A stretch of DNA of 64,000 nucleotides from NCBI GenBank assembly GCA_951406725.2, contig OX597825.1, positions 60,264,001-60,328,000 on the forward strand. The letters run 5' to 3'. This DNA is from Octopus vulgaris. Lineage: Eukaryota. Positions within the stretch are counted from its first letter, which is position 1. Each line of letters opens with the position of its first letter. This document shows positions 6,355 through 48,300 of this stretch, in pieces. A program made the translations under genes and the position numbers. Below the pieces are notes generated by a model, which had not been told where the DNA came from, did not search any database, and worked only from the letters and a program-made list of their open reading frames with translations.

Positions 6355-6584
6355 ATGTGTGTGTGTGTGTATGTGTGTGTATGTTTGTGTGTATGTCTTT
6401 GTCTCCCCAACATCGCTTGACAACCTTTGCAGGTGTGTTTACGTCCCCGCAACTTAGCGGTTCGTCAAAAGAACCGATAGAATAAGTACTAGACTTACAA
6501 AGAATAAGTCCTGGGGTCGATCTGCTCGACTAAAAGCGGCGCTCGAGCATGGCCACAGTCAAATGACTGAAACAAGTAAAAGAG
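6355..6584 (+). mobile_element. 3' half of SINE family B
   Basis: catcgcttgacaacc...cttagcggttcg...gaataagtactag...atgactgaaacaagtaaaagag. Confidence 0.85.
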
Positions 6585-6765
6585 TATATGCATATAAATA
6601 TTTACGCATAAATGTCTGTGCCTATTTTTTCAATTTGTACAAATAACACGTTAAAAAATTAATAGTTACCAAGGTAGTAAAAATTCACATAAGTGCCAAG
6701 GATGTTACTGCCTTCTTATAAAAGTAGAAATTCCAGTGTTTAGTGAAATGTTTTGATTATCATGG

Positions 6766-6846
6766 ATAAATTAAGAAATTGAGTTAAACGCAGGTGTTAT
6801 TCAATAACAATATTTGAATAACACCCGCGTTTAACTCCATTTCTTA

Positions 6847-6852
<6 letters not shown>
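6766..6852. repeat. Fold-back inverted repeat (39-bp arms, 9-nt loop) abutting (TA)n
   Basis: ataaattaagaaattgagttaaacgcaggtgttattcaa pairs with ttgaataacacccgcgtttaactccatttcttaatttat, 2 mismatches. Confidence 0.92.
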
Positions 6853-6942
<90 letters not shown>

Positions 6943-7008
6943 GGTCCCGGGTTGATTAGGGGTTAACCACAGTAAATAAGGTACTCAATACATAGCAGAG
7001 TAAAATTA

Positions 7009-7140
7009 ATTTATTATATAGAAGGAGCTTCTACAGGACTAGAACTGTTTCATTCAAGAGAAATCTTCAGGAAGCTTCCTGAAGATTTCTCTTGAATGAA
7101 ACAGTTCTAGTCCTGTAGAAGCTCCTTCTATATAATAAAT
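7009..7140. repeat. Perfect 132-bp palindrome with no spacer, followed by (TA)n
   Basis: The two 66-bp arms are exact reverse complements centred on aag|ctt at 7074/7075. Confidence 0.97.
7073..7123 (+). ncRNA. Type I hammerhead ribozyme, apparently intact core (mirrored on the minus strand)
   Basis: Stem I agcttc/gaagct; CTGAAGA at 7079-7085; stem II t-ttc-tctt-gaa-t; GAA then stem III ACAG/CTGT; GUA cleavage after 7117. Confidence 0.75.
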
Positions 7141-7389
7141 ATATATATATATATATATATATTTGACTCTATGTATATTTATATACTTTCTTATTTTTTA
7201 AAAATAGATTAGTATGCAAATATAACTGCATATAGCTTTATAAATGTAAAGTACCTTCCATATAGCCTGAGTTTTTTTGAGGTTGGTTAGAGAGCGTGTG
7301 TGCGAAAATGTTACGAAAAACCTGCGTTCTTGCATATACATGTGTTTGGTTTTGTGTGGGTATGTGCGTGTGCGTGCGTGCGTGTGTGT

Positions 7390-17614: not shown

Positions 17615-17830
17615 CGTGTGTATATGTTTGTGTGTCTGTGTTTGTCCCCCGAACATCGCTTGACCAGCGATGATGGTGTGTTTACGTCTCTGTAATCTAG
17701 CGGTTCGGCAAAAGAGACCGATAGAATAAGTACTACGCTTATAAAAATAAGTCCTGGGGTCTATTTGCTCGACTAAAGGTGGTGCTCCTGCATGACCACA
17801 GTCAAATGTCTGAAACAAGTAAATGAATAG
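17411..17830 (+). mobile_element. Full-length SINE family B
   Basis: ggcgcaggagtggctgtgtagtaagtag head, internal (TA)n, gaaacaagtaaa tail. Confidence 0.9.
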
Positions 17831-20977: not shown

Positions 20978-21096
20978 ATACATGTATATATATCTGTATA
21001 TATAAAAGGCAGGATATGTGTGTGTGTTGCCCAGTAAATGGTGTCGTGAATAAAAAAATAATTAATAGCGACTGCTATGATCTTGCTGGAAGTCCG

Positions 21097-21139
21097 TCCC
21101 TGAAAATCCCGAGGAAGGGTGAAATCACGTGTTGTGGGA
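21097..21139 (+). ncRNA. Degenerate hammerhead-like motif in a PLE-like remnant
   Basis: CTGAAAA (G8>A), t-ccc...ggg-t stem II, GAAA, near-palindromic cacgtg stem III. Confidence 0.35.
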
Positions 21140-21308
21140 TAAGGTTATCGCCTCTGTACTCTGTATTCTAGCAAAACATCGTCATTAAGTGGGAGATATA
21201 TATTAACTTTCGGTGTTTATACTGCTTTCTTTTTGCTATTATTGTTTAATAATCCCACGCGCTGAATGCAACACTCATGCTTGAATAGACACTGATATAT
21301 TATATATC

Positions 21309-45902: not shown

Positions 45903-46036
45903 TAAATGAAAGAATGGAGTTGAACGACGATTTAACAAAATTCCTTTATTCTCGAGATATGTTTCGAAGGTTCGAAACATATGTCGAGAATAAAGGAATT
46001 TTGTTAAATCGTCGTTCAACTCCATTCTTTCATTTA
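45903..46036. repeat. Fold-back palindrome (66-bp arms, 2-nt loop, 1 mismatch) containing a hammerhead 3' half
   Basis: Arms 45903-45968 / 45971-46036; cGAAACATATGTC at 45973-45985; followed by (TA)n. Confidence 0.93.
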
Positions 46037-47194: not shown

Positions 47195-48300
47195 TTGAAG
47201 AAGCGTGAATTACAAGAGATAGACCGGAGAACACGTAAATTAAAGGCAATGAACAAGGAACTATACCCCAAGAATGATGTGTCAACATTCTATTTAAAGA
47301 GGAAAGAAGGCAGACAAGGATTGGTGTGTTGTGGATGCTGTGTAATGGAAGAGGAGAATAGCCTGGCTTGGTGTGTCAAGGCGTGTAAAGAAGAAATGTT
47401 TGAATCAGTGAAAATGTAGGGAAGCTTAAAAGTGAACAAAGCTGTACATCCAACAGAATTTAAGAAAGACCAGAGAGAGTAGATGAAGAAATTGTGGCAG
47501 GACAAGAAAATGCACAGTTAGTTCTTCAAGAATAGAGATGAGATTGATTGGAATGGAACCTGGCAATGGCTGCAGAAAGGAGACGTTAAAGGGCTCACTG
47601 AGGCATTAGTGTGCAGCGCTCAAGAACAAGCTCTCAGAGCAAGCTACTCCAAATATCACATTTATAAAAGCACTGACTCACCACAATGTAGCTGAGAAGG
47701 GAGAAAGTATAAGCCATATTGTTAGTGAGTGCTGTAAGTTCGTTCAACGCGAATACAAAACGGGACACGACAATGTGGCCAGATATGCCCACTGGCTCTT
47801 GTTCGGTAAAGCAAACCTTAGAGCCGAATGATAGTAGGAACACAAACCAAAGAGAGTGATGGAAAACGATCATTACAAAATACTCTGGGATTTTAATGTG
47901 CAGTGCGACCAAGTTATAGAGGCGAGACGACCAGATATCGTGCTTATCTATAAAGATGAAAAAGAAGTAAAGATAATAGATGTTGCAATACCAGTCGATT
48001 CGAGTGTGAAATGTAAGGAAACAGAAAAGATTAACAAACAGCCACTGCGGGACGAGATAGGAAAGTTATTTGGCATGAGGAAAGTAATGGTGATACGAGT
48101 GGTAATTGGAGCATTAAGAATATTGGAGTTGCTGTCAGACTCGAGGTGATCCAGAAGACAGCATTGTTGGGTACAGCTCGCATTCTAAGGAGAGTATTGT
48201 CTCTTTGAGTCACAGAAGTCACTACTTCAGAGCTTTGGTGATTTGTTATTGCCTGCTTTCAAGTAAAGAACAACCACAAATAGAACAACGAGAATCAAAA
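47195..48300 (+). pseudogene. 5'-truncated R4/Dong-clade non-LTR retrotransposon (post-RT region, zinc knuckle, restriction-like endonuclease)
   Basis: IDRRTRKL..LKRKEGRQGL; TWQWLQKGD..TEALVCSAQEQAL; ESISHIVSEC..HDNVAR; KILWDFNVQCDQVIEARRPDIVL..IIDVAIP (PD..D RLE motif); IQKTALLGTARILRRVL*. Contains stops and frameshifts, and has a (CAA/TAA)n tail. Confidence 0.92.

What the first reader, a model, noticed from the sequence alone, without database searches (positions are those of the whole stretch)
7009..7140. Perfect 132-bp palindrome that folds back at the 5' edge of an intact hammerhead
Seen: a zero-spacer, mismatch-free palindrome. The right arm encodes a full HHR (stem I agcttc/gaagct, CUGAAGA, GAA-ACAG/CUGU-A). 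The symmetry axis lies inside the 5' strand of stem I, so both strands encode the ribozyme. Stem II is closed by U.U rather than G-C, as also at 21107/21120. Inference: a very young PLE-type inverted insertion. In a read-through transcript the 66-bp duplex would compete with ribozyme folding and could be an ADAR or Dicer substrate.
Basis: partly seen in the sequence, partly recalled or inferred. Interest (0 to 1): 0.75.

Follow-up and report, generated by a model that had tools for sequence, protein, structure and literature searches.

The report
Head-to-head Penelope stub silencing its hammerhead
This perfect 132-base palindrome is two head-to-head copies of the end of a very common repeat sitting in a TA microsatellite, likely left by a Penelope-type jumping gene; the layout is already described, and the self-cutting RNA motif it carries is predicted to be unable to fold here.

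Summary
The palindrome is real in the window: 66-bp arms, no spacer, no mismatch. It is part of a 201-bp insertion (6940-7140) between two TA tracts. The left arm runs on for a further 69 nt (a one-sided tail). The right arm stops at a place where other family copies also end. The family is very high-copy in DNA runs of three samples. The hammerhead has the full core, and its U.U closure of stem II is not a defect: 14 of 26 published Hydra-clade Penelope hammerheads have it. Inverted 5'-truncated copy, tail, hammerhead and (TA)n target are all described for Penelope-like elements. The parent ORF could not be reached, so clade membership is by resemblance only. Likely mechanism: both cut DNA ends prime reverse transcription at two start sites, and the cDNAs join at a natural self-complementary 4-mer. 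In read-through RNA the ribozyme fold is predicted absent (about 1e-54). No raw reads span this locus. One sample likely carries another allele. Editing, small RNAs and cleavage are untested. The window holds two more such stubs, and this scan found the same layout many times before, including in this genome. Ordinary.

The parts
6850..6939 (.). (TA)n tract, left flank and likely insertion target
6940..7008 (-). 69-nt one-sided tail: 3' extension of the long arm, absent from the short arm
   Evidence: high-copy table 2 (laid from 6941)
7009..7074 (-). left (long) arm: 5'-truncated element end, hammerhead on the minus strand
7073..7076 (.). self-complementary AGCT at the axis; part of the natural family sequence (stem I 5' strand), shared by both arms
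   Evidence: table 7: family contigs match through 7076/7073 and then leave the window sequence
7075..7140 (+). right (short) arm: inverted copy ending at the family's tail-less 3' end
   Evidence: table 7 (9 of 24 shown loose-end rows lie at the mirror place 7005-7012, mostly AT-repeat letters)
7073..7123 (+). type I hammerhead motif of Hydra-clade form (core 7079-7085, U.U 7086/7097, predicted cut after 7117); mirror at 7026-7076 on the minus strand
7114..7132 (+). predicted 8-bp hairpin over the cleavage site and the 3' strand of stem I; competes with the ribozyme even in a solo copy
   Evidence: folded on the minus-strand copy, mirror 7017-7035
7139..7162 (.). (AT)12 tract, right flank

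Best explanation
The palindrome is two head-to-head, 5'-truncated copies of the hammerhead-bearing end of a high-copy repeat in a TA tract, likely a Hydra-like Penelope retroelement, and it likely arose in one insertion in which both cut DNA ends primed reverse transcription. Steps: (1, inferred from PMC11167929) the element's GIY-YIG endonuclease cuts both strands of the TA tract; (2, inferred; the two ends are shown) one DNA end starts copying at the far start site (6940, giving the tail) and the other at the near site (7140); (3, shown by sequence) both copies run through the uncut hammerhead and end at the 5' edge of stem I; (4, inferred) the two cDNA ends pair through the self-complementary AGCT and are filled in, giving a zero-spacer palindrome; (5, predicted) the result has no ORF, and any read-through RNA folds into a 64-bp hairpin in which the ribozyme cannot form. 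It is most likely dead debris. Odds: Penelope-type stub about 0.9; this two-ended route about 0.6.
For: Long arm with tail plus short arm, TA on both sides. Summed contig depth 1.4e5-4.8e5 on 6955-7108 against 10.5 on the unique flank in X1; also high in X24, X2, X3 (not a copy number). 9 of 24 shown loose-end rows (16 contigs, 3 samples) sit at 7005-7012, so the short end is a family end, not a random break. The best-agreeing loose ends at the axis (X2, X3) show the family continuing past 7076 with other letters, so AGCT is natural and the junction is new. One diverged contig at single-copy depth crosses the same axis (X1 record 7: 7021-7110, 8 other letters, 1 gap). The 3 listed common variants map to N7 and loop II, the free positions of a hammerhead (mirror 7083, 7090, 7091; table 3). 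Hydra table: U.U form in 14 of 26 rows, the same stem III and A at the cut site in 3 of 26, (TA)n target in 26 of 27 families, an inverted copy with a hammerhead on the other strand in Penelope-13_HM. PAc cuts and extends both strands, starts at two sites that define the tail, and uses uncut RNA (PMC11167929). Fold probability of the hammerhead about 1e-54 in read-through RNA of either strand.
Against: No RT or endonuclease ORF could be tied to the family: no genome held, 0 of 16 metagenome hits extend beyond 22 nt. The tail (69 nt) is longer than the 30-40 bp in PMC8557442 and loop III (8 nt) is longer than in all 26 Hydra rows (1-3 nt). No TSD can be read inside TA. The axis is not fixed: X24 shows a joint 7045/7094 with 16 letters between, and loose ends at 7056, 7057, 7070, 7081. 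Only one other locus with this axis is shown (811 rows hidden). The second palindrome (45903-46036) has no natural self-complementary word at its axis if the family-B loose ends apply to it, so pairing by microhomology may not be needed. Identical arms fit snap-back equally well. No raw read spans this locus.
Confidence: 0.6

Rival explanations
1. Same Penelope-type stub, but made by self-priming: one cDNA folds back at stem I and copies itself, and the endonuclease resolves the intermediate, leaving the tail on one side.
For: Self-priming is the reading of junction palindromes in PMC3846280; PMC8557442 ascribes the tail to endonuclease resolution. The arms are identical, including the 3 variable places.
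Against: The natural sequence offers no hairpin at this axis: the junction is symmetrical with no loop, and the family letter after 7076 differs from the window's, so snap-back would have to start from about one base pair (inference). The short arm ends exactly at a second family end, which matches the two RT start sites measured for PAc.
Confidence: 0.22
2. The parent is a non-coding retrozyme (a tandem or circular ribozyme RNA) that borrows Penelope enzymes, not an autonomous element; the insertion route is the same.
For: Animal retrozymes are proposed to be non-autonomous Penelope derivatives (bioRxiv 10.64898/2026.07.22.740005, abstract). Earlier scan notes report such families in this genome (unchecked). 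Only about 27 letters upstream of the axis are known.
Against: No tandem unit at this locus. The hammerhead matches the table of ORF-bearing Hydra families, and its distance from the two ends (88 and 157 nt counted as in that table) falls in the range of 23 of 24 usable rows (87-210 nt; my arithmetic).
Confidence: 0.1
3. Assembly or library fold-back artefact, or arms made identical by polishing with reads of the high-copy family.
For: No contig spans this locus, and in X1 the contig on the unique right flank runs 124 letters left of 7173 with no listed piece on the palindrome (record 8). The window has the family majority letter at all 3 listed places. The axis reads as a HindIII site (recalled).
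Against: The arms are only 66 bp and lead into different flanks. The short arm ends at a biological family end. The six-base site is created by the junction and is not in the family sequence. Aged stubs of the same layout with mismatches lie at 6766-6852 and 45903-46036, and a diverged same-axis junction is in an independent short-read contig. Contigs of 31-letter words are not expected to cross a perfect palindrome of a high-copy repeat (inference).
Confidence: 0.04
4. A solo 137-nt stub inserted first, and a later replication template switch duplicated 66 bp in inverted form.
For: TA tracts and hairpins are prone to slippage (established knowledge).
Against: It would have to start at the element's own 5' edge and stop at the family's second 3' end by chance; three families in one window show the layout.
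Confidence: 0.02
5. The hairpin is a functional dsRNA or ribozyme switch used by the host (ADAR or Dicer substrate).
For: A perfect 64-bp RNA stem, -109 kcal/mol, would be a substrate if transcribed; the ribozyme reappears only if RNA starts within about 4 nt upstream of stem I.
Against: Very young, and one sample likely has another allele. No host exon found: 0 of 100 scanned ORFs reached a Pfam cut-off (100 of 406 candidates).
Confidence: 0.02

Closest known systems
Hydra clade of Penelope-like elements (Craig et al. 2021, PMC8557442; passages, supplement searches and supplement part 2 of 59 read)
   Same: (TA)n target; hammerhead near the 3' end; U after the core and U before GAA (14 of 26 rows); identical 4-bp stem III with A at the cut site (3 of 26 rows); 5'-truncated inverted copy with a hammerhead on the other strand (Penelope-13_HM).
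   Different: No ORF here, so clade cannot be tested. Loop III is 8 nt against 1-3 nt. A 17-nt piece of this hammerhead is absent from that supplement and the Hydra-1_oBim hammerhead differs, so the family is not one of those listed.
Inverted pLTR plus one-sided tail of endonuclease-bearing PLEs (Arkhipova et al. 2013, PMC3846280, passages read; PMC8557442 Fig. 2 legend)
   Same: Head-to-head inverted copy at the 5' end, palindrome at the junction, tail on one of the two arms.
   Different: Whole insertion is only 201 bp; tail 69 nt rather than 30-40; TSD unreadable.
PAc (Poseidon of Anolis) in vitro system (Frangieh et al. 2024, PMC11167929; parts 1-2 of 4 read)
   Same: Both strands cut and extended, AT-rich target, two RT start sites defining the tail, uncut hammerhead RNA as template, hammerhead inactive without protein.
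   Different: Another clade; the parts read do not explain inverted junctions.
Minimal PLE hammerheads (Cervera and de la Pena 2014, PMC4209133; parts 1-2 of 4 read)
   Same: Type I, near-palindromic stem III region able to dimerise, pairs of motifs on opposite strands 100-700 bp apart noted.
   Different: That paper calls G10.1-C11.1 highly conserved; here it is U.U, and stem III is 4 bp with an 8-nt loop.
Animal non-LTR retrozymes (bioRxiv 10.64898/2026.07.22.740005; abstract, outline and two passages read)
   Same: Non-coding, hammerhead-bearing, tied to PLE ends.
   Different: No tandem monomer at this locus.

Membership tests
Inverted insertion of an endonuclease-bearing PLE | 5'-truncated inverted copy joined head to head | tested here: met
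Inverted insertion of an endonuclease-bearing PLE | tail on one arm only | tested here: met
   69 nt, 6940-7008; short end is a family end; longer than the published 30-40 bp
Inverted insertion of an endonuclease-bearing PLE | hammerhead in the terminal repeat | tested here: met
Inverted insertion of an endonuclease-bearing PLE | dispersed multi-copy family | tested here: met
   depth four orders above the unique flank in X1; held in 3 samples
Inverted insertion of an endonuclease-bearing PLE | target-site duplication | tested here: inconclusive
   both ends lie in TA repeats
Inverted insertion of an endonuclease-bearing PLE | parent encodes RT and GIY-YIG endonuclease | not testable with these tools
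   no genome held; no relative in metagenome contigs
Hydra clade | RT phylogeny and C-terminal endonuclease | not testable with these tools
   no ORF available
Hydra clade | (TA)n insertion target | tested here: met
   26 of 27 families
Hydra clade | canonical-core hammerhead near the 3' end, of the tabulated form | tested here: met
   U.U form 14 of 26 rows; distance 88/157 nt within 87-210 nt of 23 of 24 usable rows; loop III longer than any row
Hydra clade | identity with a named family such as Hydra-1_Obim | tested here: not met
   17-mer absent from the supplement; its hammerhead row differs
Type I hammerhead ribozyme | core CUGANGA, GAA, NUH and three stems | tested here: met
   0 of 100 shuffles
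Type I hammerhead ribozyme | G10.1-C11.1 pair of canonical motifs | tested here: not met
   U7086.U7097; no variant listed there in family contigs
Type I hammerhead ribozyme | match to an Rfam hammerhead model at gathering score | tested here: not met
   0 matches in the window
Type I hammerhead ribozyme | self-cleavage | not testable with these tools
   predicted fold only 1.8% as an isolated monomer, z-score 0.17
Non-LTR retrozyme | tandem non-coding monomers each with a hammerhead | tested here: inconclusive
   absent at this locus; parent upstream unknown

The most novel reading that the evidence does not exclude
The 5' edge of hammerhead stem I is a built-in stop (or the RNA start) for this family: two target-primed cDNAs, begun at two fixed sites, halt there and are joined by the ribozyme's own self-complementary AGCT, so each such insertion switches its ribozyme off. 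A family-wide map of axes and ends would then read out Penelope second-strand joining and template ends in a living animal.
Probability: 0.3. Interest if true: 0.45.

Novelty: new member of a known kind. Interest (0 to 1): 0.2.

Why it matters
By itself little: it is one young stub among very many. How Penelope-like elements make inverted insertions is still open (PMC8557442 names it as a task), and clean stubs like this record the start and stop points of copying. A census of them, not this one copy, could decide between two-ended priming and self-priming. Young perfect hairpins of this kind could add to double-stranded RNA in an animal known for heavy editing, if they are transcribed.

Tried and rejected
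Rfam at gathering score: 0 matches. Other copies of the element in the window: none beyond the two arms. Whole genome: not held. Metagenome scan with a 17-mer: 16 loci, none extends beyond 22 nt, taken as chance. Pfam on 100 of 406 candidate ORFs: 3 weak hits, all under cut-off; no host exon or PLE protein. Empty-allele test: the left flank was laid to look for X1's 341-nt record; it was not among the 24 rows shown (996 hidden), so inconclusive. No cover on 7137-7164 is a repeat-skipping effect. Restriction-ligation artefact rejected because the six-base site is not in the family sequence. U.U as decay rejected. Motif at 21100 rejected as an intact ribozyme. Scan look-ups by sequence, near and relatives gave nothing. 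Literature: none of the 12 papers listed for Penelope, twin priming, pLTR (16 held two of the terms) joins twin priming to pLTR; this is one search of an open-access library, not proof of absence. The paper on dimeric PLE hammerhead variants that I recalled is not held; a review was read instead (PMC6765202, passages). PMC13282606 (passages) has no mention of palindromes or ribozymes. One search was a search listing only and is not used.

Full report
Observation. Window 7009-7140 is its own reverse complement, with 66-bp arms, no spacer and no mismatch; chance expectation is about 1e-32. The right arm with two bases of the left holds a type I hammerhead: 6-bp stem I, core CUGAAGA at 7079-7085, U7086.U7097 closing a 3-bp stem II, 4-bp stem III with an 8-nt loop, GUA at 7115-7117. 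A strict descriptor finds it once per strand and never in 100 shuffled windows. Rfam does not detect it. The motif at 21100 has the U.U pair but its core has lost G8 and it fails the descriptors.

Anatomy. The palindrome is not the whole unit. On the minus strand the left arm runs on for 69 nt to 6940 and then enters a 90-nt TA tract; the right arm enters a 24-nt AT tract at 7139. So the unit is a 137-nt long arm and a 68-nt short arm, sharing the four bases AGCT at 7073-7076. No other copy lies in the window. The AT-rich, microsatellite-rich window is animal-like; the label octopus comes from earlier scan notes on this genome and was not tested by me.

Family evidence. 24 runs were listed, all kept as contigs. 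Four were laid on 6941-7340 (three samples). Summed depth in X1 is 1.4e5-4.8e5 over 6955-7108 and 10.5 on the unique flank, so the element is a very abundant repeat (the tool warns that this is no copy number). Of 24 loose-end rows shown (22 hidden), 9 lie at 7005-7012 with mostly AT-repeat letters: other copies also end where the short arm ends. Six rows lie at 7073 or 7076; the three that agree best (X2, X3) show a shared continuation that differs from the window, so stem I and AGCT are natural and the junction is new; the other three agree poorly and may be old copies or copies cut at this place. Only three variable places are listed; they mirror to N7 (7083) and loop II (7090, 7091), and the window has the majority letter at each. 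One contig at single-copy depth bridges the same axis with 8 other letters and a gap (X1 record 7); a shorter one in the same sample (X24 record 22) has only 15 letters on one side and does not count. X24 also shows a different junction (7045/7094, 16 letters between), so the axis recurs but is not fixed.

Is the locus real? No raw reads were available and no contig spans it. X1 record 8 covers the unique right flank with no difference and runs 124 letters left of 7173, with no listed piece on the palindrome although 60-letter pieces were listed; the reading of record coordinates was checked on X2 record 10. That sample therefore likely carries another allele, perhaps the empty site. Laying the left flank did not show the record (24 rows shown, 996 hidden). 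This is a hint of polymorphism and also the main point left for an artefact. Against an artefact: short arms with different flanks, a short end that equals a family end, aged stubs of the same layout at 6766-6852 and 45903-46036, and the independent same-axis contig.

What it is. Inverted 5'-truncated copies, junction palindromes and a one-sided tail are described for endonuclease-bearing Penelope-like elements (PMC3846280, passages; PMC8557442, passages). The Hydra table in the supplement of PMC8557442 (part 2 of 59) matches closely: U after the core and U before GAA in 14 of 26 rows (two of them identical sequences), the same stem III and cut base in 3 of 26, (TA)n target in 26 of 27 families, and Penelope-13_HM with an inverted copy bearing an opposite-strand hammerhead. 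Counted as in that table, the motif lies 88 and 157 nt from the two ends; 23 of 24 usable rows lie at 87-210 nt (my arithmetic; the inverted row and one 5'-end row left out). A 12-nt word in the tail (6981-6992) matches the 3' end of Hydra-2_Amil at 11 places (by eye; weak). Differences: loop III of 8 nt against 1-3, a 69-nt tail, and no match of a 17-mer in that supplement. The parent ORF could not be reached, so it works like a Hydra end but is not shown to be one; a retrozyme parent is possible.

How it likely formed. PAc cuts and extends both strands of AT-rich DNA, starts at two sites that define the tail, and uses uncut RNA (PMC11167929, parts 1-2 of 4). Here the two ends are the family's two 3' ends and both arms contain the uncut ribozyme. 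The simplest reading is two target-primed cDNAs joined at the natural AGCT. Self-priming with endonuclease resolution is the published alternative; it fits identical arms but has no natural hairpin to start from at this axis. The 45903-46036 palindrome cuts against a need for microhomology: its centre looks like a once-perfect junction with one changed base, and family-B loose ends (the two family-B ends share only 33 of 46 aligned columns) show no self-complementary word there.

What it does. The hairpin is -109 kcal/mol as RNA and -72 as DNA. The hammerhead fold has probability 1.8% alone, 1% if RNA starts 4 nt upstream of stem I, 2e-6 at 8 nt and about 1e-54 in read-through RNA of either strand. 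Even a solo long arm gives 4e-5, with an 8-bp hairpin over the cut site in the best fold. Two isolated motifs co-fold at -27.0 against 2 x -8.5 kcal/mol, in line with dimer-type PLE hammerheads (PMC4209133, parts 1-2 of 4; PMC6765202, passages). These models omit tertiary contacts and proteins. No host exon was found and transcription was not tested, so ADAR or Dicer action is possible and unshown.

Verdict. A real-looking, young, non-coding stub of a known layout, from a family not listed in the one supplement searched. The scan recorded this layout in other genomes and in at least eight notes on this genome (AI notes, not independent support). Supplements of the bioRxiv preprint and most parts of the PMC8557442 supplement were not seen and could name the family. 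Interest 0.2.

Noticed in passing
window 6620-6852: A second fold-back stub of another high-copy family shares the TA tract: 39-bp arms (6766-6852), 9-nt spacer, 2 mismatches, short arm on the right and about 145 nt of extra repeat sequence on the left; loose ends at its axis carry the 3' half of a hammerhead.
   Followed up: partly
window 45903-46036: Palindrome with 66-bp arms, one mismatch and a 2-nt centre; the axis lies in stem II of a hammerhead whose 3' half only is kept; TA tract on the right; 3' end resembles the 6766-6852 family.
   Followed up: partly
window 21095-21150: Decayed hammerhead-like motif of a third family: U.U closing a 3-bp G-C stem II, core with G8 changed, stems I and III broken, about 100 nt right of a TA tract.
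   Followed up: partly
window 7114-7132 (mirror 7017-7035): Predicted 8-bp hairpin covering the cleavage site and the 3' strand of stem I; no family variant is listed there, so it may keep the ribozyme off in ordinary copies too.
   Followed up: partly
run X1, record 8, on window 7173-7340: The contig continues 124 letters to the left without a listed match to the palindrome: likely another allele, possibly the empty site.
   Followed up: partly
run X24, table 5: Another locus of the same family joins 7045 to 7094 with 16 AT-rich letters between, a fold-back with a different turning point.
   Followed up: no
run X2, table 7, place 6971: A contig joins a piece like 7015-7026 directly to the tail in the same orientation, suggesting a template jump within the element end.
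   Followed up: no
window 6955-7136, table 2: Summed depth on the arm region is roughly 2 to 4 times that on the tail in all four runs, as expected if half or more of the family's ends lack the tail; contig depth is a crude measure.
   Followed up: no
window 47838-48149 (+): 103-aa frame resembling the restriction-like endonuclease end of a non-LTR retrotransposon (recalled resemblance; no Pfam hit).
   Followed up: no
window 6400-6586, 1045-1067, 17803-17829: A dispersed SINE-like repeat whose 3' end recurs in the window; its likeness to an octopus SINE is recalled, not tested.
   Followed up: no
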